Assembly (NCBI GenBank): GCA_951406725.2
Contig: OX597821.1
Span: 69,750,001 to 69,814,000, forward strand
DNA length: 64,000 nucleotides
Direction: 5' to 3'
Origin: Octopus vulgaris
Lineage: Eukaryota
Positions within the stretch are counted from its first letter, which is position 1; every line of letters begins with the position of its first letter. A program made the position numbers and the translations under genes. The notes under the pieces were generated by a model, which was given only the letters and a program-made list of their open reading frames with translations, did not search any database and had not been told where the DNA came from. Of the stretch, positions 206-60,000 are shown in pieces.

Positions 206-3200
206 TAAAGACTAATGGACTCTTACGAGACAACGGCCGCTAAAATAGCATATACCTAAGAGGCAGAAGCAATCATAGCACTTGAACATCCCTGCTAGGA
301 AATGGAAACTCAATAGATTAAACCAGGATTACAGGAATCCTTTATCCTAGGGTGGAGATCCTGTCAGTGATGGCATCACGGGAAAAATACGGGTGGTTGT
401 GCAATTCACTAACCCTCATGATGAGTGGTGAAATGTCAAATTAAGGTTGAAATGAGAACGGCGTGAATGAGGCTGGAACAGCTTGTGAAGGTCTCTCGCC
501 CGGCGGGTGCCCCACGGGTGAGCAACATGGGCCCAGTCGTCATCAAATGACTGTTAAAAGAAGGTGGACGAAACAAATGAATGTGGCTGTAATGGAGCGC
601 AACTTTCTGGGTGATCCGAAAAATGGTAATGAAGTAGCTTCTAGGGGATATAGGAAATGAATGCACAGGTCGGGGAGCGACAAAGGCCTATTTGAATGAC
701 CAAGCTAGAGTCATCAGAAAGAATGAATGGTTATTTCCAGTTGAACTAGAAAAGATTAAAAGAAGGATGCTGATGGATAGTAAGACCAGCCGTGAACGAA
801 AGGATGAGGAAGAGAATACAGATAGGGAAACTATGGTAGTAGAGTTAAAGGGAGAAAACGAGCATGAGGCTGAGATTATTGATCAGGAAATCGATGAGAA
901 AACCGAGGAACAGATATCCATTTTATATGAAACCATTGATATTTGGACCTCTGGTAAACAGAGCTTTCATACGGGGTTTTAAAAAGTAAACAGAAAAACC
1001 TCAATGAATGAGTAAGGAAGATTAATGATATCACTGGTGTTATCAGGACAGACAACATCATAGACATCAAGAATCTAATAAATGCAATCTCGATATTTAT
1101 AGCCCGGAAGTTAGGTTTGAAAGTCAAAGGTAAATGTCAACATGGTGGAAAATTAGAATAACGCAGTCTGTTAACGAGACCAGAAAACATTAATATTCTG
1201 GAACGGAAAAAAGAAATGAAGTTCAGTGAGGGAAATATGTTGAGCTAGAAAGGGAGCATAGGGCGAAGAGAAATGTTGTGATTGAGGAATTAAAACAGAG
1301 GTTGAAAACTAAAGCACATAAGCGAAAGAAATATGAACAGAGAATTGAGCAGTATTGATTAAACAGACTTTTCGAATAAAACCAGAAACGAGTCTATCAA
1401 GAATTTGATGGGAAAGAAAAAGGTGAAAAAGCCGTCCCGGTTGCTGAAGAAAGTAAAAGATTCTGGTCAAGCATATAGTCTCAGGAGAAACAACACGAAA
1501 CTGAAGCAGAGTGGTTAAAGACACTCAAAGAGGAGAGTGGAGAGTATCAGCAGGAGGTTTTGAGAATAACCAAGGAGATGATTAGTGATCAGTGCAGGAA
1601 AATTCCTAATTGGAAAGCGCCTGATCCAGGTGGGGCTCGGGGCTTTTGGCTTAAAAACTCAGCACAAGAGAATTGCAAGATAGATGGACGAAATACTGAG
1701 TAGTGACATTCAAGTACCGGCCTGAAGGGCAAGAACGGCACTATGCCAAAAGGACCCAAATAAAGGGAATGTGGTTGGAAATTTCCGACCAATATCTTGT
1801 TTGCCACTGATGTGGAAACTGATGACGGGCATCATATCAAACAGTATTTGTAAGTACCTAGATGAGAACAACCAGTCGAATAAAAAGGGTGTAGACATAA
1901 GAGCAGAGGAACGAAGGATCAATTACTAATCGACAAGACTATCCTGGCTGACTGCAAAAGACATAAATATTTGGCGATGGCATGGATGGACTGCAAGAAA
2001 GCATATGACATGGTCCCACACGCGTAGATTATTGAAAGCCTTAAAATACTTAAGGTCTCCCAAAATATCCTGAAGTTAATACAAAACTCAATGACAATGT
2101 GGCGAACTCAACTCACAGCATGGGGAGATAAGCTGGGAGAAGTACATATCAAAAGAGAAATCTTTTAAGGGGACACTCTGTCGCCTTTTCTGTTTGTTGT
2201 CTGCATATTGGCACTAACGAGCGTCTTAAGATGCATGTGAGGGACATGCTAGGAAGGGTGAAAGTAAACAACCTGTGGTTTATGGATGACCTAAAGCTAT
2301 TCGCCAAGACTGAGAAAGAAACTGAGAGTTTGACGGTAACTGTGCAGATGATTAGCTAAGATATTGGCATGGAATTTGGGATCGAGAAATGTGGTGTAAT
2401 GATTCTCAAAAGGGGAAAAATCAGTAAAAGCCATGGGATCAAGTGGTGAAACCATAAAGGAAGTCAGAGAGGAAGAAAATAAATACCTGGGTATCATTGA
2501 AAGAGATAAGATGAATGAACACCATATGAAATAAATGTACAGGAAAGAGTATTTGAGGAGAACTCGGCTTGTGCTCTAATCGAAGCTAAATGGCCACTGT
2601 AAGATTAGAGCAATTAACAGGTGGGCGGTTGTTTTGATGAGATATGGGACAGGAATTGTATCGTGGAAGAAGCATGAATTACAAGAGATAGACCGGAGAA
2701 CACGTAAATAAATGACAATGAACAAGGAATTACACTCCAAGAGTGATGTGTGAAGATTGTATGTAAAGAGGAAAGAAGGAGGAAGGACATTGGTGTGTTG
2801 TGAAGGTTGTGTAAGGGAACTGACTTGGTATGTCAAGGGGAGTAAAGAAGAAACGATTGAAGTAGTGAAAATGCAGGAAACTTTAAAAGTGAACGAAGCT
2901 GTAGATCCAACACAATTTAAGAAAGACCAGAGAGAGAGCAGATGAAGAAAATTTGGCGGGAGAGGAAAATGCGCAATTTGTTCTTGAAGAATAAAGATGA
3001 AATTGAATGGAATAGAACTCCGAAATGGCTACAGAAAGGAGATTTAAAAGAGCCCACCGAGGCATTAGTGTGTAGCTCTCAAGAACAAGCTCTCAGAACA
3101 AACTATTTCAAATATCACATTGATAAAAGCACTGACTCACCTCAGGGTAGAATGTGCTCTGAGAAGGGAGAAAGTATAAGTCATATTGCTAGTGAGTGCT

Positions 3201-3445
3201 GTAAGCTCACACAACGCGAATACAAAAGGAGACACGACAATGTGGCCAGATATGTCCACTGGCTGTTGTGCGGTAAAGCAAACCTCGAGAGAACCGAACA
3301 ATGGTATGAATACAAGCCAGAGGGAATAATGGAAAACGAATATTACAAAATACTCTGGGATTTTAATATTCAGTGCGACCAAGTCATAGAGGCGAGAGGA
3401 CCAGATATCGTGTTCATCCATAAAGATGAAAAAGAAGTAAAGCCT
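206..3445 (+). mobile_element. Near full-length, decayed RLE-type non-LTR retrotransposon (R4/Dong-like), 3'-truncated
   Basis: N-terminal RRWTKQMN..GYRK; RT motifs WKAP (~1611), NFRPISCLP (~1780), KKAYDMVPH (~1995), GDTLSP (~2170), FMDDLK (~2280); QEQALRTN, zinc-finger remnant RMC..ESISHIASEC, RHDNV and KILWDFNIQCD..PDIV (ORF 2942-3517). Many stops and frameshifts. Confidence 0.9.
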
Positions 3446-3489
3446 GAAGCAAACTCCTTCTTATCTCCAGCAAGAGGCTATCCACTTCC

Positions 3490-5638
3490 CAAAAGACAGT
3501 ATCAGAAATATGAGTAAAAAGATGAACAATTGGAAAGCAGCAGGACCTGATGGTGTTCAGGGATAAAAAGTTCAGTAGTTGAAGGATGCATCAAAGGGAA
3601 ATGCTGCTGACAATTACAGACCAATTTCCTGCCTCCCATTAATGCGGAAGTTACCGTCAGGAGGAATTGCAGAAGAATTGCATAACTGTCTTGATGAGAA
3701 CGATATATTACTGATGGAACAAAATGGCTTTAGAAGGAAATGCAGAGGCACCAAAGATCAAATATTGATAGACAAAATGGTAATGCAAAATTGTAAAAGA
3801 AGAAGAACAAATTTAGGAATGGCCTGGATTGACTATCGCAAAGCTTCCAATATTATTCCACATTCGTGGATTATCGAGTGCTTAGATCTGTTTGGAATTG
3901 CGAGGACTGTAAGGTTTACTCTAAAGAGAATTATTCTGAGATGGAAAACTGAACTGACATCTTATGGAAAAAAGCTTGGGCACCCTGGGTATCAGAAGAG
4001 GGATTTTCAAGGGTGATAGCCTATCTCCGTTGCTTTTCGTTCTCTGTATGATACCCCTGACCTTGGTACTTAGGAAAATGAATCTGGGGGACCAACTAAA
4101 GGGAAAATCCCAAACAATCAACCACCCCCTCTTCATGGATGAGATGAAACTGTATGGCAAAGAGACAAAAGTGAGTTCCTTGGTGAATATGGTCCATTGT
4201 TTTACTACTGATTTTAGAAGGGAATTTGGACTCAAGAAGTGCCGAATAATCTATCAAAAAGAGGCAAGATACAGTTCCTAGCAGGGATAGCATTACCGAA
4301 TAAAGGTTTGATTAAACAAATTGAAACGGCGGGATACAAATACCTTGGTGTACTGGATTTCAATGATATGACGGAAAAGGAAATGAAAGAGCAACTCAGG
4401 ATGAAGGATTTCCGACACTGAGGTTGGTGCTGCGCTCAAAATTGACTGGATGGAATAAAATCCAAGCAGTTAATACGTGAGTGATAGCATCATTTCGGTA
4501 TGGAACGGGAATTGTAAAATGGCAGAAGAGAGAAGTGAAGAAAATGGATTCCAAGACCAAAAAAATGTTGACAGTACACAGAATCTTCAACCCTAAGAGT
4601 GACACCGATAGACTGTACTTGTTCAGAAGAAAGGATGGGAGAGGTTTGGTCAGTTGCCAGGACTGTAATGAAACAGAGGAATACAGCTTATGGTGGTATA
4701 TAAAAAATGCTGTGGAGTCACTGTTGAAACATACGATGAAGGCCAGAGTCATCAAAACTGAAAATTGTGTGACTAAAGAAAAATTTAAACAAGAAATGAA
4801 CAAAAAAAAAAAAAAAGAAACAGCACGAAAGGAAAAGGAAATGTACGGTCGGTTTGCAAGAGATGTGAACAGATACAGAGGACCGGTGGCTATGGATGAA
4901 GAGGAGTGAGCTGAATATAGAAGCGGAAGAACTCATGTGCGCAGCTAAGGAACAAGCGTTAAGGACCAATTATATGAAGTGCAGAATAGACAACACTACC
5001 GATGGCGACAAATGTGTGGTGAGAGGGGCGAAACGGTATGGCACATCATTAGCGAATCCCCGAAAGTGGCACAACGCGAATACAAACGACGCCATGACAA
5101 TATGGCAGGAATGATCCATTGGGAGCTGTGTGGAAATCCCGGCCTACAAAGAGCAAAGACGTGGTATGAGAAAACTCAAGAAGGAGTCACCGAAAATGAG
5201 AATTCCAAAATCCTGTGGGATGCAATGATCCATTGCGATCACTTGACCAGACATCGGAAACCGGACATTGTTGTGGGGAATAAAAAATAAAGAACATGTA
5301 TGGTAATTGATATAGCATGCCCCGGTGACAACATGATCAATGTGAAAGAAGAAAAATAAACAACTATGATGATTTAAAGTTGGGAAATAGGAATGTTGTG
5401 GTCAATGAAGAGAGTCGACGTGATACCAATAGTAATTGGTGCACTTGGAAGTATCAGCATTCAACTACCAATATGGCTGAAAAAGATTGGTGCATGTGTG
5501 AAGGAAGAACACCTGCAAAAGTCAGCATTGCTTGGAACTACAAGAATTCTTCGCAGTAAAACAAGTGTCACCTTAGTCTGCTGGCTGTGGACAGCTGACA
5601 CTTTCCATCATACCCAGCAAAATAAACTGTGAGTATTC

Positions 5639-6617: not shown

Positions 6618-6939
6618 CGGATAATTTTTTGGTAGTTTATTTTGTATTTTTGTCTTTTCCCCTGGTGCTGTATGAACATTTAATGCGGTTTTAGAGTCAA
6701 GCTTTGGCTGCTATTTCCAGCGTGCTGGTATCTCTTAGATACCCTAAATTATAATTTTAAGATATATATATATATATTACTCAAAGGAATTGCAACTCTG
6801 TTATATTTATATTCTTATAATATTAATATAGGATATGGAATATAGAATATATAGTAAGAAAGAAATGAAATGAAGTATTGATTGCCTTATTGAACAAATG
6901 AAATATTGAAAATTTAAATATTATATGACTATTTTCATT

Positions 6940-6980
6940 GAACTAGTATACTTTCTTGCATTTAAGCAGTCATCAGGTTC
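6940..6980 (-). ncRNA. Inverted copy of the same hammerhead motif
   Basis: Exact reverse complement of 7031-7071. Confidence 0.75.
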
Positions 6981-7030
6981 CGATTGTGACAGGAACGCGA
7001 AAGACTGTCGAAGGGTTCCTGTCACAATCG

Positions 7031-7071
7031 GAACCTGATGACTGCTTAAATGCAAGAAAGTATACTAGTTC
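7031..7071 (+). ncRNA. Minimal type I hammerhead ribozyme motif
   Basis: GAAC-CTGATGA(7035-7041)-cTGC ttaaat GCAa-GAAA(7056-7059)-GTATACT-A-GTTC. Stem I GAAC/GTTC; palindromic stem III AGTATACT; predicted cleavage after CUA (7067). Confidence 0.75.
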
Positions 7072-7263
7072 AATGAGAATAGACATTTTATATTTAAATT
7101 TTCAATATTTCATTTGTTCAATAAGGCAATCAATACTTCATTTCATTTATTTCTTACTGTATATTCTATAGTCCATATCCTATATTAATATTATAAAAAT
7201 ATAAATATAACATAAAAAACAGACAGGGTTACAATCCCTTTGAGTAATACACACACACACACA

Positions 7264-8828: not shown

Positions 8829-9040
8829 TTGTATACTGTCAAATTAATGTGACAGTCCCATGAAGGGAATTATACTACTGCTATATAGCCCTAGGAAGCA
8901 GCAACGCTTCGTGTCAGCCTTGACACATTTCCTGTGTCTTTATGTTTGCAAGGGGGAGATAAGCACCTCCATTCAGCTAAGCCTGCATACGGAGACCAGT
9001 TTCTGAATATTTGCTCGTCATCAGTCTGAAGTAGTATGAC
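8829..9040 (-). mobile_element. Fragment of hammerhead-bearing retrozyme-like family B
   Basis: Aligns (reverse complement) to 12621-12817; lies next to (CA)n. Confidence 0.8.
8986..9032 (-). ncRNA. Minimal hammerhead ribozyme motif with weakened stems
   Basis: Minus strand: ttcaga-CTGATGA-cgagcaaatattca-GAAAC-tg-GTC-tccgta. Confidence 0.65.
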
Positions 9041-9358
9041 CTTTTTCTTTATTATAGGCACGAGGCCTTAACATAGAGCCGACACAAGACGAACGGGAAC
9101 ATAAAACAAATGATGTCTGGTTGATAGAATGATTAACAATAATGAAAATGAGACAGTTCGACTCACGTCCGCTGCGAGATGAACAGTGAGTACCTTTACA
9201 ATTAACTTTAGAAGTAAACTTTACAAGTAAACTTTACAAATACACTTAAAACCACCTCTAGTTTCGCTACAATGCGAAACCGTGACCTTTCCTTTCGTTT
9301 CCTGTTTATATAATAAACGTTCATATGTGTCCTATTTTGTTTTACAACAGAAAATTAA

Positions 9359-10159
9359 TAGGATTTTTTTTCCTTTTGAACGGCAGATGTCAACACAATT
9401 TCTAGTTAACTAAACACTTTTAAACTTCGTATACTGGTAGAATGTGTTTATAAAACATCATTTTTTCTTGGCTTTATTGAGAAAATTCTATATCTTATAA
9501 AATATTTCCACTTTAAAATCGAGCATTTTGGCAATTTTAACCAATCGCTCACTTCCATTTGGGGTGAAAAGATTCCGTGCTGTATGAATATGCCCCTCGT
9601 TTAAGAAACAGATTGGGTTTATTTACATTTACGAAGAAAAAAAGATATCCTTCCCCCACCCCTAACCCTAACCCTAATCCTAAAATAGATTGTAATGCAA
9701 TAGATCGATACCAGGGCCATAATTAGGGGTGACATTTTCATTTGACACCACTAGAAAAAAATCCCATTTTCCGTAGCGGTGTCGTATGAAATTGTCACCC
9801 ATAATTACGGCCCTGGTATCGATCTATTGCATTTCAATCTATTTTAGGGTTAGGGTTAGGGGTGGGGGAAGGGTATCTTTCTTTCTTCGTAAATGTAAAT
9901 AAACCCAATCTGTTTCTTAAACGAGGGGCATATTCATACAGCACGGTATGTTTTGACTCCAAATGGACGTATTTGATTGGTTAAAATTGCCAAAATGCTC
10001 GATTTTATAGTGGAAATATGTTACAAACTATAGAATTTTCTCAATAAAACCAAGAAAAATGATGTTTTATAAACACATTCTACCAGTATACGAAGTTTAA
10101 AAGTGTTTAGTTAACTAGAAATTGTGTTGACATCTGCCGTCCAAAAAGAAAAGATCCAA
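9359..10159. mobile_element. ~800-bp palindromic MITE/fold-back DNA element with internal telomere-like repeats
   Basis: Arms of ~390 bp (ggat.tttt.cttttg.acggcagatgtcaacac... / ...gtgttgacatctgccgtccaaaaagaaaagatcc). CCCTAA x3 at 9660-9677 and TTAGGG x3 at 9844-9861. TTAA lies just outside both ends. Confidence 0.9.
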
Positions 10160-10315
10160 TTAATCAATAATAAATCTCTGAACGAGGTATAAACAGTAAC
10201 TGCACGACAATGTGAGGTATATTTGCCATCTCAATATAGCTAACCACTAAAGGTGGGTGTTACTGTAGCTTGTAGCCCCAGGAGAACATCTCCTCCAGCT
10301 GGCTATAACACTTTA
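10160..10315 (-). mobile_element. Diverged fragment related to the hammerhead element at 55893-56471
   Basis: Collinear with 56205-56355 (aaatctc.gaa.gag...aaacagtaa...gccatct...gctaaccac...ggtgttactgtagctt.tagcccca.gaga...agctggct). Confidence 0.7.
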
Positions 10316-10637
10316 AATACTTGTTTGTTCATCCCTTCATTTTGCATTATTTCTTCTTTTTGTTCTGGACTAGCAAGGCCTTAGTTCCTTTATAATTGGC
10401 ATGAAGCCTTTTTATAGAAATTACATTACAGCAACAAACAAAAAACAAATGTGAGGTACATAAAATGATTACGAATGAATTGTGATATGTGAAAATATGA
10501 TGATGAAATGGCTTTCTACCCCGCAAACAGAACGTACCATTTTACTGTTTTTACAATTAATGTGGTTTGTGTTCTATATGTATCATTTTTTAATACTAAA
10601 TGATTCAATAACTCTTCGTACGTTACCACAGGTGGTA

Positions 10638-10962
10638 GTGAGGGCGCGTGGCTTAGTGGTTAGGGCATTCGGCTCATGATCGTAAGGTTGTGAGTTCGAT
10701 TCCCGGCGACACGTTGTGTCCTTGAGCAAGACACTTTATTTCACGTTGCTCCAGTCCACTCAGCTGGCAAAAATGAGTTGTACTTGTATTTCAAAGGGTC
10801 AGCCTTGTCACTCTCTGTGTCACGCTGATTATCCCCGAGAACTACGTTAAGGGTACACGTGTCTGTGGAATGCTCAGCCATTTGCACGTTAATTTCACGA
10901 GCAAGCTGTTCCGTTGATCGTATCAGCGGGGACCCTCGTCGTCGTAACCGGCGGAGTCTTTT
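10638..10962 (+). mobile_element. Full-length tRNA-derived SINE (family 2) with a 15-bp TSD
   Basis: A box tggcttagtgg and B box gttcgattccc; T-rich tail; TTACCACAGGTGGTA duplicated at 10623-10637 and 10963-10977. Confidence 0.9.
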
Positions 10963-10977
10963 TTACCACAGGTGGTA

Positions 10978-12400
10978 ATTCATCGTATCGATCTCGTCTC
11001 TTTCTTATTACTACTCTGCTTCCGAATGCTTCTTTCAATCTCGTTGCTCTCTCGCTCTCTAGCAGTACTGCTTTCATAGTAGGTTCTTCCTTACTGTCAG
11101 CCAACTTGACTCTTATTATGTTTTTCATCTTTGTTATATCCACTTCTCTATCTCCACACTCTTTACATATACTAACAACCATTCGTTTATTGTTTCCTAA
11201 GTTTGGTTTTCTCTGTTGTGTTTCTTTATTCTCCGCCTCAGTAACTGGTATTTCCATTTCTTTCTGTTGTTCCTCTTCTTTTTCCTTCTGTTTCTCGCTT
11301 GCTTTACCAGTTGAAGGTTCTAGAGTTCTAATCTCTGTTGTTTCCTCGTTTCTTTTTTTTCTTTTCCTTTCTCCTCTGCCTTCCTTTTCTTTTTCGGTGG
11401 AGATTCACCATTTCCTTTTTTCTCTACCATTGTGGTCTCCGCTTCTCTCTCCGGCACCGTTTCCATTTCTATTTTCGTGTTTCTGGGGACACCTCGCTTT
11501 CATGTGTAACCCCATTCTACAATTGAAGAATATTAGTGGTCCACCCTCCACCACGACTCTCAGTCCGGTCCCATCGGGTAGTACAACTTCCTCTGTCACT
11601 TTGTGGAGGCCAGACAGGCCGATAAGGACCATCACCTCAAGGCCACATCACCCACCAACTGACGTTCGCTGTCCTGGACACTCTCAACACTTCCACCTTC
11701 TCTTCCGTGTTGCAGAGGACGGATGCCACAAGCCAGTCCTCATCAATTTCTGGTGGCTCTCTCCATATTCTTACTCTGCCTGCGTGTCTGCCACAGTAAG
11801 TAGGCAGGAGTGCCCATTGTGCCGTTTTCAAGGCCACGGTGGAGCACCTCTTTGCTTCGTCCTCATTAACGAAGCGCACCTCCACCGTGCCAAACTTTCT
11901 TCCTCTGTTATAAAAACTCGTCACCTCCATAACGTCTCTCAAGCACTTCTCCACCTCTTCCACAGCTGTTACTTAAATTATCCGCGTCGCCATGTTCAGC
12001 GTTCGACATGTTCTTACTTTCCGTTCGCAATTTTCTTCCACCTCCCTAGGGAGTGCTAGTCTCAAACATCCTCCCTCCCCCTCAATAGGTTGTTAAACTC
12101 TATATAATCTGCATCTCCAACCTCCAGCTCCCGCATCTGCTGCACCTCCACTGTCAGGTTCTTGCCTGCTACCGCCGCACAACCGCCCGTCCGTGCCTCC
12201 ATGTTTCCACTATTTACTGCTTCACCCACAAATGGCGAAGCCATACAACATTTTCAACATATATAAAAACAGAACATCAAACACAACATCCAACAATTCA
12301 ACAACGCAACAATTTCGCACATCAAAAAGAACAAAAACAACAACTCACACGGGAGCGAGATCAACACACAACCGACTCGCACTAACGCCCTCCTGCGATC
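10978..12400 (-). mobile_element. 5' end and decayed ORF1 (gag-like) of an L1/Tx1-type LINE
   Basis: Broken minus-strand ORFs 12062-12244, 11637-11963 (GRKFGTVEVRF, RRM-like), 11405-11635 (FNCRMGLHMKARCP, CCHC knuckle remnant) and a Lys/Glu-rich tail. Confidence 0.6.
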
Positions 12401-12404
12401 AACC

Positions 12405-12868
12405 TCTGAAGTAGCATGGCCTTCTAGTTGGAGATGCATGTCTAGTCATTGCAAACATATAAGAATTCTAGTGAAATACATTCTCTGATTACAAAAATAG
12501 AAATAATACATTTCTAAATATCTGAGAGAGTTTTATGCAGTAGTGGTACGATAGAGTAGTTGTATACTGTCAACTTAATGTGACAGTCCCATGAAGGGAA
12601 TCATACTACTGCTATTTAGCTACTCCAGACTGATGACGAGCAAAGACTAGTCTCTGGATGCAGGCTTAGCTGGGTGGAGGTGCTTATCGCCCCCTTGCAA
12701 ACATAAGGACACAGAAATTGTGTCAAGGCCGATAGGAAGCGTTGGTGCTTCCTAGGGCTAAATAGCAGTAGCATGATTCCCTTCATGGGACTGTCACATT
12801 AAGTTGACAGTATACAACTACTTTATCGTACCACTACTGCATATATCTCTCTGAGATATTTAGAAATG

Positions 12869-12873
<5 letters not shown>
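12405..12873 (+). mobile_element. Retrozyme-like family B insertion: inverted segment plus sense segment ending in (TA)n
   Basis: 12504-12620 is the reverse complement of ~12757-12873. The sense part starts at the hammerhead tccaga-CTGATGA(12630-12636)-cgagcaaa-[GAAA deleted]-gacta-GTC-tctgga. Confidence 0.85.
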
Positions 12874-12919
<46 letters not shown>

Positions 12920-13140
12920 TATATAACACATGATGGAGATGGAATATGCAATAAACTTTGTTGCTCACAACGATCGTTTCGACGCATCCTGCATCGACCC
13001 CTCGCAGGTGGGATACTGTACACCTGGTTGTGGTGTACTCCTCGGTGCAGCCGCATCTCCTCAAGTGATGTTATAAGGGGTGTCTCGGTTTACTACTAGA
13101 AGCATACCCAAACTTTTTACACATATATATATATATATAT

Positions 13141-18919: not shown

Positions 18920-20213
18920 CGAGGGGCGTTCAATAAGTAATACCTCTGACCCACTTGCAATTGTTTGATCTAGCTGAAATTTTGCATGTGCAATTATTTA
19001 TATCTCTATAGAGTAAGTGGTGGCAAATTACAGCTCTGAACTAATTGTGGTTCCTGAATTACAGGTATTTGAACTGAGTCAAGTGTGAAATGGAGCCAGT
19101 TGAATGTCGAGCAGTGATCCGGTTTTTGTATTTGAAAGGACGCACACCACGGAATACTTTTGATGAAATGAAAGTAACTTATAGTGATGATGCCCCATCA
19201 TATGACCTTGTAAAACGCTGGCATCGTGAATTCAAACATGGTCGGAACTCTGTGGAAACAGCTCCCAGATCTGGTCACCCCACTTCTGCCATTGATGAGG
19301 CATCTGTACGTCAAGTTGAGGCTGCCATTTTGGAAGATCGACGCATAACTATTCGCCAAATAGCCCATGAGGTCAAGATTAGTACCGGGTCTGTGGAAAC
19401 TATCATTCATGACCATTTGCATATGCAAAAGGTGTCTGCCAGATGGATTGCCAGGTTGCTCACACCTTTTCAGAAGCAAGAACGCGTCGAGTGCTCGAGG
19501 ATGAATTTGGAGATGTGCCAAGAAGATGAGTCAAAATTTTTCAAAAGACTGATTACACAGGATGAAACCTGGGTCCATCACTATGATCCAGATACCAAAG
19601 CCCAGTCAATGCAGTGGAAGTACCGTGACTCACCTCCTCCAAAGGAGGCAAGGGTGCAGCCCTCCGCTGGCAAGGTCATGCTCACAGTCTTCTGGGACCA
19701 GGACGGAGTAGTGATGACAGATTTCCTGGCAAAGGGTACCACAATTGCAGGAGCCTATTATGCTTCACTTTTGAGGAAATTAAGAGAAGCTATCAAAATC
19801 AAGAGGCGGGGCAAGATCAGCAAAGGCATCCTCCTCCTGCAGGACAACGCTCCGGTCCACAACTCGCTTGTCGCCAGATCAGAAGCACAGGCGTGAGGCT
19901 ATGAACTCCTCCCCCATCCCCCTACTCTCCTGACCTTGCACCCTCTGATTTTCACCTCTTCCCAGCCATGAAGTTATTTTTGAAAGGAAAGCGTTCCCAG
20001 ATGATGCAGCCTTGATTTCTGAAGTCACGTCGTGGTTGGAGGACCAAGCTGGGGTCTTCTACAAAAACGGTCTCCAGAGCTGCATCAAACGATGGGAGAA
20101 ATGCGTAACTCTGGGTGGTTCCTATGTAAAAAAAGACTAATAACTGTGCCAAGTTTCGTTGCTCTACTGCAATGGGAAGTGGGTCAGGGGGATTACCTAT
20201 TGAACGCCCCTCG
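18920..20213 (+). mobile_element. Full-length mariner (D,D34D) transposon, 1294 bp, TA TSD
   Basis: TIRs CGAGGGGCGTTCAATAAGTAAT / ATTACCTATTGAACGCCCCTCG; TA at 18918-18919 and 20214-20215. Confidence 0.97.
19090..20140 (+). pseudogene. Mariner transposase with one in-frame stop (19894-19896) and one apparent 1-bp deletion (~19993)
   Basis: WIARLL, ITQDETW, LLQDNA, PHPPYSPDLAPSD; 34 residues between the 2nd and 3rd Asp; C-terminus RWEKCVTLGGSYVKKD*. Confidence 0.95.
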
Positions 20214-51956: not shown

Positions 51957-52019
<63 letters not shown>

Positions 52020-52049
52020 GTGATAATAATAATGGTGATGATAATAATA

Positions 52050-54350
52050 CACGACGCTGAAAAGGAAGTATAATATTGAAAGAAAGGGGCTGAAAATAGT
52101 AGTGGAGGAACTGAAACAGCGCCTCGTTGCAAAGAAAGCAAAGATGGTAAGATACGACCAAAGAATGAAGGGTTACCACCAGAATAGGTTATTCAGAGTA
52201 GATCAGAAGAGATTCTATAAAGAAATAAATGGAGAGTGGACAGATGAAAAGTTTGGGAGTGACATCTGGAGCAAAGACAAGGAGCACAAGAAGGATGCTG
52301 AATGGTTGCAAGAACTGAAACAAACAGTAGTCTGTCCAAAACAGGCAGAAATAGTCATTTCAGTTAGGGAAGTGAAGGAAATCAGAAAAAAAATGAGCAA
52401 GTGGAAAGCCCCGGGACCAGAAGGAGTTCAAGGCTACTGGATCAAAAGATTTGGTGAATGTCATGCACGAATAGCTGAGCAACTCAACACCTTGCTAAAT
52501 GCCGACCAAGCAACACCAGAATGGTTGACATTGGGTAGGACAGTGCTGTACCTGCAAAACATCGAGAAAAAAAAAAGGCAATGCGTTAGACAATTACAGG
52601 CCGATATCCTGTTTGCAACTTATGTGGAAGTTATTGACTGGAATACTCGCAGAGTCAATGTACGAATATCTAGAAAAAATGGAGTCCTGCCACTTGAGCA
52701 GAAGGGTTGCAAGCGTAAGTGCAGAGGTATCAAGGATCAACTCCTGGTTGACAAAACTGTACTCAGAGACTGCAGCAGGAGGGAAAGTAACTTAGCTATC
52801 TCATGGATCGACTATTGATATGATCTCTCATTCATGGATTATGGAGTGTACGAACCTGTTTGGGATTGCATCGAATGTTAAGCGATTGCTTGGAAAAAGT
52901 ATGTAGAATTGGTGGACGGACCTGACAGCATACGGAAGAAGTTTAGGGACAGTAGAAATTAGGAGGGGCATCTTCCAAGGGGACTGTCTGTCCCCACTGA
53001 TATTTGTACTGTGCTTGATAACACTGACACTGATTCTGAGGAAAGCAAAAGCTGGGTATGTATTGAAAAGCCGCCCACAAAAAGTCAACCATTTGTTATT
53101 CATGGATGACCTCAAACTTTATGGTAAAGATGAAGCCCAAGCCAGCTCCCTCGTTGATACGGTGAATACCTTCATTGCTGATATCAGAATGGAGTTCGGA
53201 CTGAGGAAGTGTGGTGTGTTAGTATTGAAGTGAGGCAAAATCAAACGTTTGGACGGGTTAATGATACCGTCGGGAGAGGTTATGAAGCAGATAGAAGAGA
53301 CATGCTATAAATACTTGGGGATACTGGAAATGGATAAATTGATGGAGAAAGAAATGACAGAAAGATTTGAAGTGGAGTATTTGTGCAGACTGAGACTGAT
53401 CATTAAGTCGAAATTAAACGGACAGAATAAGATCGAGGTTATCAACACCTGGGCGGTTTCACTCCTTAGATATGGAGCAGGGATAATCGCATGGACAGTA
53501 GACGAACTAAACAGCTTAGACAGAAAGACAAGGAAGTTGCTAACTAGATATAGGTCACTTCCCAAAAAAGTGACACAGATAGAGTGTGTGTACCAAGTAA
53601 AAGAGGGGGAAGAGGACTTATTGGATGCGAACACAACATTAGAGCAGAAGAATACAACAACATGGTTTGTAAAAAATGCCACAGAACCGCTATTATTAGA
53701 AGTAAGAAGGTCAGGCTTGTGTAGGATGAAAGATTGCAAAGATAAAGCACTATACAAGAAATTGAAAACGAATGAAACTGAAAATAGGTGGGTAAAGAAA
53801 AGAATGCATGGTCAATTTCATAGGGATGTTGAAGATAAGACAGACAGAGAAAAAAGATGGCTGTGGATGACTAAAAGTGATTTAAAACCGGAAACGGAGG
53901 CTCTAATCTGTGCTGCCCAAGTGCAAGCACCAAGAACAAACTTCATAAAATACAGAATAGACAACGCAGCAGAAAGTAATAAGTGCAGAATCTGTGGACA
54001 AAACGGTGAGACCGTATGGCATTTTACCAGCCAATGTACGCCACTATCCCAGAAAGAATATAAGAGACGGCATGACAATATAGCCAGGCTTGTTCATTGG
54101 GCACTTTGCAACAAGTATGGACTTGACAGCAAAAAATTGGTACGACCACAAACCTGAAGGCATCGTCGAAAATAGAAATGCAAAGATCCTATGTGATTTT
54201 ATGATTCAGTGCGACCATGAGATAGAGAATAGGAAGCCGGACATGGTCTTGAGAAAGAAAACAAACTATGCTGGATCATAGATATAGCATGCCCAGCTGA
54301 CAACCGTATGCGATAAAGAAGTCGAGATATATGACAGGTTAGCTTGGGAG

Positions 54351-55636: not shown

Positions 55637-55860
55637 ATGTGTGTGTGTGTGTGTGTATGTATGTATATATTTAGTGAGAGAGAGAGAGAGAGAGAGTAGA
55701 GAAAAAGAGAGAAAAATAGATGAATAGATACATATGTACTTATATATATACAAATACATATACTTACGTATACACATATACGCACACACACATGTGTATG
55801 TGAATAAATATCTATCTATAAATATATATCTATATATTAATATATATATGTACATATGTA

Positions 55861-55895
<35 letters not shown>

Positions 55896-56062
55896 AAAGT
55901 ATAGAAGCCATCTTATCATGGCTAACCACATTGGAGAGGGGGTGTTACTATAGCTTTATAGCCCCAAGAGATCTTCGTCTCTAGCTGGCTCTAGACACAA
56001 TATCTGTGTCCTTGGAGTATTTGCCAAGGGAGGCCATCCCTTCCTCGCAAGCCTGAGTGATA

Positions 56063-56106
56063 CGCTCGAACTAGTTTCGGGATTGTTGTCCCTCGTCAAC
56101 GGGCGG
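56063..56106 (-). ncRNA. Minimal hammerhead motif (U3 variant)
   Basis: Minus strand: ccgcccg-TTGACGA-GGGA caacaa TCCC-GAAAC-TA-GTT-cgagcg. Confidence 0.7.
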
Positions 56107-56399
56107 TAACCACCAGGTAGCGATGAAAGTGAAGGCTCCTTTGCAAATAGATATAAGTTTTTCTAATGGCGTCTGCCACTGATGTCGAAAAACGAACAGT
56201 AAGCATAATTAAATCTCAGAATGAGATTGAAACAGTAATCGCTCGATAATGTAAAGTATAGAAGCCATCTTATCATGGCTAACCACATTGGGGAGGGGGT
56301 GTTACTGTAGCTTTATAGCCCCAAGAGATCTTCGTCTCTAGCTGGCTCTAGACACAATATCTGTGTCCTTGGAGTATTTGCATCGCTACCTTGTGGTTA

Positions 56400-56444
56400 C
56401 CGCCCGTTGACGAGGGACAACAATCCCGAAACTAGTTCGAGCGG
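56400..56444 (+). ncRNA. Inverted copy of the same hammerhead motif
   Basis: TTGACGA 56407-56413; stem II GGGA/TCCC; GAAA 56428-56431; stem III palindrome AACTAGTT; stem I ccgcccg/cgagcgg. Confidence 0.7.
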
Positions 56445-56657
56445 ATCACTCAGGCTTGCGAGGAAGGGATGAATAGATGAATAGATACATATGTACTTAT
56501 ATATATACAAATACATATACTTACGTATACACATATACGCACATACACATGTGTATGTGAATAAATATCTATCTATAAGCCTCTCTATATATTAATATAT
56601 ATATGTACATATGTAATTTATTATACATAAATGTATGTATGTATATATCTATATCTA

Positions 56658-58528: not shown

Positions 58529-60000
58529 GTAGTCTTATTTTTATCACGTACTTTCACTGCATTACAATACTCTGTGTGCCTTGAGTATGTGCTTTGGTTT
58601 GTTATGATGCTCTTATTTTTAATGTATAAAAGTGTTTTACGCAGGATGTGTGCGGTGCCTAGGAGAGCTATTTTCTGTATATTATATACGCTTGTTAGTC
58701 TTGGTGTTTTTGTTGTATTTGTCACAATATTTTTTATCATACTTAATGAACCTAAGAATTGGTTCTGTTTTTAGAATCCACACTCGAGTCACCTCTATTT
58801 CCAGATCTTTATATTTTGAAAGTTTCTCCATTTCTTTTAGAGAAACATTGCCATCTGTTTGTATTGATACATCAATTAGAAAGCATTTTTTCTTGGTGAT
58901 CTCTGACAACTATATCTGGGCGGTTGGCCTTAATTTCTCTATCTGTGTGTATTGGCATATCCCAAAGTATGGTTGCTTTCTTGTTTTCTGTGACCTTTCC
59001 TGGTGTGTGCCTATACCATCTTTTTTCTGCTGCTATTCTATAGTGTTGGCACAGCTTCCAGTGTATGTAGGTCCCAACTCTGTCGTGTCTGTGAATGTAT
59101 TCCTTCTTAGCCAGGACTGGGCAGCCAGAGATAATATGCTTTATTGTTTCTTGTCCATCTCCACACATTCTGCAGTTACTTGTTATGTTTCTTTTCATTG
59201 CATGTTTTTGGTAATTCCTGTTGGGAAAGGCTTTGGTCTTTATGCTGCAATTAAAAATCCTTCAATCTCTGCTTTGAGTCCTGAGTTTCTCAGCCATTGT
59301 TGGGATTTTGCTTTCTCTATTTCTTTTGCGTTTAGCTTAACCCAGTATTTGCCATGAACGGGCTTTTCTTGCAACAGTTTCATCATCATCCGTTGCTGTT
59401 CAGTTTTGGTTTGGATTTCAGTTGTTTAACAGCTTTTGTTGTTTCTTCTTTGTCTTCATAGCAATTAGGTAGTATGACTTCTTTTTAGTAATTGTCAGCA
59501 TCCTTAAAGACTGAAAACATTTTTTTTGCTGTTCGTGTTTTGTGGCTATTTATATTAATTTTTCTTGCTTCTGATGTAGGTATTTTGTCGTCCTATTGTG
59601 GTTATTTTGTAATAGCTTTCTAGCTGTATAAGGCCGCTACTACCTTCTATACGTAGTATATATAACCTTTCTATGTCAGATTTTGGGTGGTGAATCCTAT
59701 ATCCTGTCATTATTTTGCTTGTTTTCCTATCTGTTTTGATTTAATTCATTTACTGTCCAGTTAAGGATATTGTAGCTTTAACTTATAATTGGGACGGCTT
59801 TTGCATTGACCTCTGTTTTTAATATTAATCTAACTCGTCTATGGTATTCCTTTCTTATCTTCTCTTTCATTTGTGTGTGTGTTGTATTGTATCTAGTTCA
59901 TTGATTCCTAAGTAATGTCTGGCTTTGGTCTAATTCCCTTATTTCAGTTGCTTTATCTAGTGTGATGTTGTCACTGTTAAATAGTTTTCCTCTATTATTA
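58529..60000 (-). mobile_element. 5'-truncated R4/Dong-like LINE
   Basis: MKEKIRKEY, CRMCGDGQETIKHIISGCP, HRHDRV, ILWDMPIHTD..NRPDIVV, EKLSKYKDL, ALLGTAHILRK. Same family as 17360-17750. Confidence 0.92.

What the first reader, a model, noticed from the sequence alone, without database searches (positions are those of the whole stretch)
12405..12873. Inverted arm closes the circle: reconstructable ~340-nt monomer of family B
Seen: the sense part runs from the hammerhead (12621) to ...tagaaatgtatta-(TA)n. Read on the minus strand, the inverted arm runs through that same end, continues ~100 nt, and arrives at gctacttcaga (12405-12415), the stem I strand that precedes CTGATGA (compare tctgaagtag at 9025). 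So the end links back to the start. Inference: a circular or tandem ~340-nt template, independently echoing the 357-nt unit at 56 kb. This copy keeps a perfect stem I (tccaga/tctgga) but has lost GAAA; the 9.0-kb copy keeps the core but has a weak stem I.
Basis: partly seen in the sequence, partly recalled or inferred. Interest (0 to 1): 0.75.

Follow-up and report, generated by a model that had tools for sequence, protein, structure and literature searches.

The report
Hammerhead retrozyme split by site-specific retroelements
This is an aged copy of a small, gene-less repeat with hundreds of copies and a hammerhead (self-cutting RNA) motif, likely pasted in by Penelope-type enzymes from an RNA longer than one unit and later split by other mobile elements that land just upstream of that motif; the class is known, and cutting and RNA circles remain untested.

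Summary
The linker runs into the hammerhead in 29 of 29 other copies, and natural dimers and trimers exist. The unit is 351-355 nt; this copy gives 343 because of the 8-nt deletion that removed GAAA. It is a dispersed, non-coding type I hammerhead repeat (non-LTR retrozyme kind, at least 376 copies) with Penelope-type insertion marks: two preferred 3' ends about 55 nt apart, frequent inverted arms, and one arm at each end in 47 of 50 scorable pairs.

One correction: the arm does not end at 12405. That point is the insertion site of a 3.4-kb block of ORF1-only retroelements bounded by three copies of a 17-nt target duplication. The '9.0-kb copy' is the rest of the same arm. This insert's tail is followed by the same target in 27 of 29 other loci, and RT-coding LINEs use the site too.

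The template is longer than one unit and uncut, but a circle is not shown: 5' ends pile up just upstream of the hammerhead, which also fits a linear multimer. The scan has reported such retrozymes and targeting LINEs elsewhere in this genome.

The parts
12619..12873 (+). Arm A of the retrozyme insertion: unit positions 1-263, ending at preferred end E2 next to (TA)n
12619..12660 (+). Type I hammerhead motif of arm A; core CTGATGA at 12630; 8-nt deletion removes GAAA, so predicted inactive
12405..12620 (-). Arm B, first part: unit positions 146-355, then 1-11 of the next unit; contains the linker (about 12503-12422) whose RNA is predicted to pair with the sequence after the hammerhead
12405..12421 (-). 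Target-site duplication, copy 1 (17 nt, ends right before where CTGATGA would follow)
10381..12404 (-). Inserted element 1: 5' leader plus broken gag-like ORF1 (pieces 12253-12062, 11972-11637, 11647-11405 with a zinc-knuckle-like stretch, 11404 onward) and A-rich tail; no RT found; relatives are 67-72% identical
10640..10965 (-). About 325-nt SINE-like insertion inside element 1, flanked by a TACCACCTGTGGTAA duplication (SINE label is inference)
10364..10380 (-). Target-site duplication, copy 2 (14 of 17 nt identical to copy 1)
9042..10363 (-). Inserted element 2: 5'-truncated member of the retrozyme-targeting family; last 150 nt about 80% identical to 39 other genomic matches; ends ...GTGCCTATAATAAAGAAAAA
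10167..10311 (-). 3' fragment of another retrozyme-like family (75% identical to the 56-kb family), nested in element 2
9370..10150 (.). Foldback/MITE-like element (arms about 90% complementary), nested in element 2
9025..9041 (-). Target-site duplication, copy 3 (15 of 17 nt identical to copy 1; shares the rare CTACTTCAGA variant)
8829..9041 (-).
12872..12925 (.). (TA)n microsatellite at the E2 end; likely the insertion target
55889..56471 (-). Related family A insertion: 357-nt period, 1.4 units plus a 94-nt inverted arm; hammerhead-like motif with GAAACTAG

Best explanation
The locus is one two-armed insertion (8829-12873) of a dispersed, non-coding 352-nt hammerhead repeat, likely written into a microsatellite by a Penelope-like RT/GIY-YIG enzyme acting in trans on an uncut RNA longer than one unit, and later split by retroelements that insert just upstream of the hammerhead core. 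Shown in sequence: the head-to-tail unit, conserved hammerhead stems with a palindromic helix III, a linker that covaries with the sequence after the hammerhead, two preferred 3' ends E1 (unit 195-218) and E2 (255-280), inverted arms with one arm at each end, the target duplications, and recurrence of the nested insert at one site. Inferred: both DNA ends at the cut prime reverse transcription internally on the RNA, one at E1 and one at E2, and the two cDNAs join back to back; the hammerhead cuts as a dimer in multimeric transcripts; the linker rod holds the cut ends together so that monomers can circularise. The template is about equally likely to be the circle or a linear uncut multimer starting about 6 nt upstream of stem I; probably both occur. 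The nested elements are inferred to be non-autonomous derivatives of an L1/Tx1-type target-specific LINE.
For: Linker joins the hammerhead in 29 of 29 loci; periods 351-355 in natural multimers. Main-arm 3' ends at E1/E2: 63 of 76 discovery loci and 68 of 78 held-out loci, and 85 of 92 arms in a 3'-anchored sample (28 of its 84 loci were seen before); the two windows cover 14% of the unit. Inverted arms in 32 of 76, 32 of 78 and 24 of 56 new loci; one arm at E1 and one at E2 in 16 of 16, 13 of 16 and 18 of 18 pairs with both ends canonical. With the 9.0-kb piece restored, this locus follows the rule. That piece matches arm A at 19 of 23 polymorphic sites (mean against 129 other copies 56-58%) and carries the partner base of the rare G-C pair (10 of 125 copies) whose other base lies in the arm B linker. 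Insert tail followed by the target in 27 of 29 fetched loci, 24 with the full hammerhead; six complete 1.6-2.3-kb inserts have the 5' junction within 2 nt of this one; 13 of 98 hammerhead-selected copies carry such a tail upstream; LINEs with RVT_1 and zf-RVT end at the same site. 53 of 56 arms pass through the cleavage site. One natural unit folds at z = -9.3 as a circle; double-change pairs in the linker rod 83 versus 41 +/- 6 in shuffles. Intact 781-aa RT plus GIY-YIG ORFs exist in the genome. The architecture matches Penelope-like insertions as described (PMC8557442 passages; PMC11167929).
Against: No autonomous Penelope-like element with sequence homology to the unit was found in 40 loci, so the partner is unnamed. 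The one two-armed autonomous copy inspected (L115) ends both arms at the same point. Overall identity of the 9.0-kb piece to arm A is 179/199 (90%), a little below the 92% within-locus mean, and 50 of 129 other copies are as close to arm A. The middle target copy lacks the rare T variant, and L252 shows that T can arise in one copy alone. The three relatives of element 1 that were checked sit at unrelated sites. The 29 tail loci include segmental duplicates and two-armed pairs. About half of the inverted pairs have one non-canonical end. The covariation shuffle ignores relatedness. Cleavage, transcription and circles were not shown. The Tx1 assignment was not tested by a tree.
Confidence: 0.8

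Rival explanations
1. The only template is a monomeric RNA circle copied by rolling reverse transcription (the strict form of the first reader's idea).
For: Arms cross the cleavage site (53 of 56) and 14 of 92 extend more than one unit upstream of the anchor. No long master array was found. Tandem passes in one locus are as alike as inverted arms (92.3% versus 92.4%; 87.6% between loci). The linker rod would close a circle. Circles are shown for mussel, coral and axolotl retrozymes (PMC7229834).
Against: A circle has no 5' end, yet 5' ends pile up at unit 340-5 (11 observed, 4.2 expected, P = 0.004, window fixed beforehand), and 5 of 5 dimer-selected loci begin within a few bases of stem I. 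A structural stall could also explain this.
Confidence: 0.3
2. The template is a linear, uncut multimeric transcript from rare tandem copies, starting just upstream of stem I; circles, if made, are a by-product.
For: 5' pile-up at the stem I start; dimers and trimers exist; hammerheads with a short palindromic helix III cut poorly as monomers (PMC4209133 passages); uncut RNA was the dominant substrate for the anole enzyme in vitro (PMC11167929).
Against: The multimers found end at E1 and look like products, not masters; without a circle or a long array the family would shorten over rounds; 36 of 47 arms continue upstream past the pile-up.
Confidence: 0.35
3. The 9.0-kb and 12.6-kb pieces are independent insertions, and the inverted arm truly ends at 12405 by twin priming on one RNA (its end overlaps arm A's start by 11 nt).
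For: A few other loci show a 6-15 nt overlap of this kind (L022, L032, L077, L198); the 9.0-kb piece is only 90% identical to arm A.
Against: Three copies of the 17-nt duplication bound the intervening DNA; the same junctions recur in six complete inserts elsewhere; orientation and unit coordinates are continuous across the insert; rare variants are shared.
Confidence: 0.05
4. The unit is only the pseudo-LTR of an autonomous Penelope-like element, and these loci are 5'-truncated copies of it.
For: Same insertion marks; autonomous elements here also carry hammerhead-like motifs with palindromic helix III near the 3' end.
Against: Upstream of the hammerhead lay linker (59 of 98 by score, more by eye), an inverted arm, a LINE-type tail or unique flank, and no shared ORF-like sequence was seen; upstream of the linker lies the unit's own 3' part; multimers have no ORF between units.
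Confidence: 0.04
5. Ordinary satellite DNA or a local DNA-level inverted duplication.
For: One trimer (L124) has two units 96% alike against about 93-96% to the third, which suggests a later DNA duplication.
Against: Hundreds of dispersed copies with fixed 3' ends, variable 5' ends, strong RNA structure and compensatory changes.
Confidence: 0.02

Closest known systems
Metazoan non-LTR retrozymes (Cervera and de la Pena 2020, PMC7229834, passages and sections 14 and 17 read; Li, Clavereau and Pollet 2026, bioRxiv 10.64898/2026.07.22.740005, parts 1-3 of 5 read)
   Same: Non-coding 150-400 nt head-to-tail unit (mussel 350-390 nt), GC below 45% (41% here), one type I hammerhead per unit, strong self-pairing, coexisting Penelope-like elements, many monomeric copies.
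   Different: Almost entirely dispersed partial copies, at most three hammerheads in a row found; the Penelope-type end rule and a targeting LINE were not in the parts read; expression, cleavage and circles not shown here.
Endonuclease-bearing Penelope-like elements (Craig et al. 2021, PMC8557442, 12 passages read; Frangieh et al. 2024, PMC11167929, parts 1-2 of 4 read; Cervera and de la Pena 2014, PMC4209133, passages read)
   Same: Partial tandems, inverted 5'-truncated arm, a tail present at one end only, two internal RT start sites, both strands cut and extended, AT-rich/microsatellite targets, type I hammerhead with palindromic helix III.
   Different: No ORF; tail about 55 nt rather than 30-40; no sequence homology to the autonomous families sampled here.
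Target-specific Tx1-clade LINEs and their passengers (Tx1 in Tx1D, Tx1-Mar and SINEU in Mariner-N4, Keno in U2; Kojima 2015, PMC4494074, passages read)
   Same: Insertion at a fixed point in another repeat; more than 20% of flanks are the target (27 of 29); non-autonomous relatives share the target.
   Different: The target is a ribozyme-bearing retrozyme, cut right before the catalytic core; the passengers are 1.6-2.3-kb ORF1-only elements; clade not tested by phylogeny.

Membership tests
Metazoan non-LTR retrozyme | Short (150-400 nt) non-coding unit in head-to-tail arrangement | tested here: met
   351-355 nt periods; dimers and trimers; linker joins hammerhead in 29 of 29
Metazoan non-LTR retrozyme | Type I hammerhead motif in each unit | tested here: met
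   179 motifs parsed: stem I at least 4 of 5 pairs in 158, stem II 3 of 3 in 151, palindromic helix III ACTAGT/ACATGT/ACATGCATGT in 160; compensatory changes in a sister family. The Rfam scan listed no hammerhead among the 150 rows shown of 255. Both copies in this window are damaged.
Metazoan non-LTR retrozyme | [quoted passage not shown] | tested here: met
   Met by the family at 5 loci plus L062; not met by this locus
Metazoan non-LTR retrozyme | Self-cleavage and accumulation as circular RNA | not testable with these tools
   Only contigs were available, none on record as RNA
Non-autonomous Penelope-like element | Inverted 5'-truncated arm and one-sided tail from two preferred 3' ends | tested here: met
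   47 of 50 pairs have one arm at each end
Non-autonomous Penelope-like element | AT-rich or microsatellite targets | tested here: inconclusive
   Many 3' flanks are (TA)n, (TC)n or AT-rich by eye; no background count was made
Non-autonomous Penelope-like element | Sequence similarity to the pseudo-LTR of an autonomous family | tested here: inconclusive
   None in 40 GIY-YIG loci drawn from 150 scored of 6136 candidates; sampling incomplete
Autonomous Penelope-like element | ORF with RT and GIY-YIG endonuclease | tested here: not met
   No such ORF in the unit, at the locus, or between tandem units
Target-specific Tx1-type LINE system (nested insert) | Fixed target with target-site duplication | tested here: met
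   27 of 29 tails followed by the target; six complete inserts with matching 5' junctions, five with the duplication on both sides; element 1's relatives are not specific (3 of 3 at other sites)
Target-specific Tx1-type LINE system (nested insert) | Zinc-knuckle ORF1; ORF2 with endonuclease and RT | tested here: inconclusive
   ORF1 zf-CCHC E = 0.002 in L253, below the Pfam cut-off; no ORF2 in the window's insert; RVT_1 and zf-RVT in truncated LINEs at the same site; endonuclease not seen
Target-specific Tx1-type LINE system (nested insert) | RT phylogeny within the Tx1 clade | not tested
   No reference set was at hand; the label rests on recalled domain layout and on earlier scan notes

The most novel reading that the evidence does not exclude
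A three-tier parasite system: a hammerhead RNA circle is copied by a Penelope-type enzyme that primes both broken DNA ends on one RNA at two fixed sites, while LINEs and their ORF1-only passengers home to the retrozyme's transcription start, immediately upstream of the catalytic core, capturing its promoter and separating the ribozyme from the rod that closes the circle.
Probability: 0.3. Interest if true: 0.75.

Novelty: new variant of a known kind. Interest (0 to 1): 0.5.

Why it matters
Which enzyme moves animal retrozymes, and whether it copies a circle, is proposed but not shown in the papers read (PMC7229834 Discussion; bioRxiv 10.64898/2026.07.22.740005 Discussion). The strict two-end rule gives exact predicted priming sites for an in vitro test with a Penelope-type enzyme from the same genome, and the 5' pile-up gives a predicted start site that separates circle from linear template. 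A LINE family that targets a ribozyme-bearing repeat at one base position was not found in the paper searches and would add a target class for sequence-specific retrotransposons. This particular copy is old and broken; its value is as a pointer to the family.

Tried and rejected
Rfam: only microsatellite-driven miRNA matches in the 150 rows shown of 255; uninformative. Sequencing runs: no RNA holder listed; four contig sets guessed to be RNA hold family-like pieces but cannot show strand, ends, level or circularity, and the low cover over the linker cannot be interpreted. Search for an autonomous Penelope partner by sequence: the two hits (L099, L115) proved to be separate retrozyme-like insertions beside the element. 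Twin priming as the cause of the 12405 end: dropped after the target duplication was found. Pile-up of 5' ends at the ribozyme cleavage site: 3 observed, 2.7 expected, so a cut linear monomer is not the template. Excess of arms exactly one unit long: suggestive in the first sample, 7 of 92 lengths in 339-364 in the unbiased one; no formal test was run and AT-rich microhomology confounds it, so it is not used. Full-length autonomous LINE at the target: three stretches fetched held only 5'-truncated copies. Pfam gave nothing significant for the window's ORF1 pieces. Long tandem arrays: none with the exact dimer pattern, which misses diverged units. Supplements of the cited papers were not seen; those of PMC7229834 and PMC8557442 may list cephalopod families.

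Full report
Observation. The plus arm runs 12619-12873; the minus arm from 12620 repeats its last 120 nt at 94%, goes on through about 90 nt of linker and reaches GCTACTTCAGA at 12415-12405. The period is 343 nt, 8 nt short because of the deletion that removed GAAA. Searching the genome with the linker gave 40 other matches among the scored candidates (467 at first look); in 29 of 29 fetched, the linker runs straight into the hammerhead. An exact 23-mer of the hammerhead has 376 matches and a 35-mer of the 3' part 211, controls 0. An exact dimer pattern has 6 matches at 5 loci; with L062 the natural periods are 351-355 nt and the longest arrays hold three hammerheads.

RNA structure. Of 179 distinct motifs parsed, 158 keep at least 4 of 5 stem I pairs and 151 keep three stem II pairs; helix III is a palindrome in 160 (ACTAGT, ACATGT, or ACATGCATGT in a sister family whose stems I and II change on both sides). 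This is the dimer-type type I hammerhead described for animal repeats and Penelope-like elements (PMC4209133, passages). One natural unit folded as a circle gives -134.5 kcal/mol, z = -9.3 against 60 shuffles; the linker pairs with the 45 nt after the hammerhead to form a long rod. In 125 copies, rod pairs show 83 double-change cells against 41 +/- 6 in 300 shuffles, with three Watson-Crick types at one pair; the shuffle ignores relatedness. So the head-to-tail junction is likely part of the functional RNA.

Insertion marks. Using the natural trimer as reference, main-arm 3' ends fall in E1 (unit 195-218) or E2 (255-280) in 63 of 76 discovery loci and 68 of 78 held-out loci (13 duplicate loci dropped), and 85 of 92 arms in a sample anchored on the 3' part (84 loci, 28 seen before; 4 of 44 new places not fetched). 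An adjacent inverted arm occurs in 32 of 76, 32 of 78 and 24 of 56 new loci. Where both outer ends are canonical, one is E1 and the other E2 in 16 of 16, 13 of 16 and 18 of 18. Penelope-like insertions are described with partial tandems, an inverted 5'-truncated copy and a tail at one end only (PMC8557442, passages), and the anole enzyme cuts and extends both strands and starts at two internal sites that bound the tail (PMC11167929). The genome holds intact 781-aa ORFs with RT-like and GIY-YIG matches (RVT_1 just under its cut-off). None of 40 such loci shares sequence with this unit, and the one two-armed autonomous copy inspected ends both arms at the same point. Mobilisation by a Penelope-type enzyme is therefore inferred from the footprint, with the partner unnamed.

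What 12405 really is. This locus seemed to break the rule, since arm B stopped at unit position 11. An earlier scan note on a LINE that homes to such repeats prompted a look at the DNA beyond. On the minus strand, a 17-nt sequence occurs three times, at 12421-12405, 10380-10364 and 9041-9025, and the third copy continues into CTGATGA and on to E1 at 8829. Between the copies lie element 1 (broken gag-like ORF1, a SINE-like insertion, A-rich tail) and element 2 (5'-truncated, holding a fragment of another retrozyme family and a foldback element). Element 2's last 147 nt have 39 other matches; 27 of 29 fetched are followed by the target, 24 by a whole hammerhead of this or the sister family (some are segmental duplicates or two arms of one locus). 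In 20 longer stretches, six showed the upstream half of the retrozyme, with the junction within 2 nt of the one here and 1.6-2.3-kb ORF1-only inserts (zf-CCHC E = 0.002). Truncated LINEs with RVT_1 and zf-RVT end at the same site. In an unselected set of 98 hammerhead hits, 13 have such a tail directly upstream, well separated in score from the rest. Element 1's three checked relatives sit at unrelated sites, so it either hit the duplication later or came along as a passenger. The 9.0-kb piece matches arm A at 19 of 23 polymorphic sites, the outer target copies share a T seen in 3 of 156 family motifs, and the rare G-C rod pair is shared. Against this, overall identity is 90% and the middle copy lacks the T. 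I conclude that the two 'copies' are one insertion: arm A unit 1-263 (E2) and arm B unit 146-355-206 (E1), about 1.2 units.

Circle or multimer. The template was not a ribozyme-cut monomer: 53 of 56 arms pass the cleavage site, with no excess of stops there (3 versus 2.7). Repeated segments within a locus are 92.3% (tandem, 24 comparisons) and 92.4% (inverted, 44) alike against 87.6% between loci (comparisons not independent), which fits one homogeneous template. A circle explains multimers without a master array. However, 5' ends pile up at unit 340-5 (11 versus 4.2, P = 0.004, window noted beforehand; one arm with a LINE tail dropped), 5 of 5 dimer-selected loci begin within a few bases of stem I, and arm A here starts at unit 1. 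That suggests a real RNA 5' end, possibly a transcription start, at the LINE target; a structural stall is the alternative. Public runs could not decide.

Comparison and novelty. The element works like, and on sequence criteria belongs to, the animal non-LTR retrozymes (PMC7229834), which a 2026 preprint argues are non-autonomous Penelope derivatives while leaving the mechanism open. Target-specific Tx1 LINEs that insert into other repeats are known (PMC4494074). Six searches returned no paper on cephalopod retrozymes, on the E1/E2 rule in retrozymes, or on a LINE targeting one; the library is incomplete and supplements were not seen. The scan has noted sister families with the same footprint and targeting LINEs elsewhere in this genome. 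I score it a new variant of a known kind, interest 0.5: the class is known and this copy is degenerate, but the end rule and the fixed LINE target give sharp, testable predictions.

Noticed in passing
window 55715-56647: The family A insertion is flanked by a 178-nt direct duplication (55715-55892 and 56472-56648, 93% identical), far longer than a usual target duplication; its inverted arm does not end at an E1/E2-like site.
   Followed up: partly
L111, L113, L119 (G000 C16, C17, C6): A young Penelope-like family with identical 781-aa ORFs at many loci, an upstream ORF of 330-480 aa with no Pfam match of note, and 300-500 nt direct repeats 99-100% identical; two-ORF layout.
   Followed up: partly
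L115:4790-4983; L084; L099:1-300; L111:5560-5680: Hammerhead-like motifs with palindromic helix III (AGTACT, ACATGT) near the 3' ends of autonomous elements and in another retrozyme-like family; some have the core variant TTGATAA.
   Followed up: partly
L229-L246: A sister retrozyme family, about 78-80% identical, with extended helix III ACATGCATGT and compensatory stems, hit by the same insert family at the equivalent site.
   Followed up: partly
L245, L247, L252, L308, L317: Tandem pile-ups of several inserts at the same target, each separated by a copy of the duplication, as in this window.
   Followed up: partly
L124:1494-2403: Trimer whose first two units share private variants absent from the third, suggesting a later unit duplication.
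   Followed up: partly
window 6799-7212: 198-nt inverted repeat, 96% complementary, 18-nt spacer, with CTGATGA in both arms (7035 plus, 6976 minus).
   Followed up: no
window 19078-19896: 272-aa open frame resembling a mariner-type transposase (label recalled, not searched).
   Followed up: no
window 2900-4900, 52000-54200, 58800-59300: Broken LINE RT pieces of one apparent family (RTE/R4-like by recall, not searched).
   Followed up: no
L022, L032, L077, L198: Inverted pairs where one arm's outer end overlaps the other's start by 6-15 nt (twin-priming geometry); in L032 and L077 the two arms together cover almost exactly one unit.
   Followed up: partly
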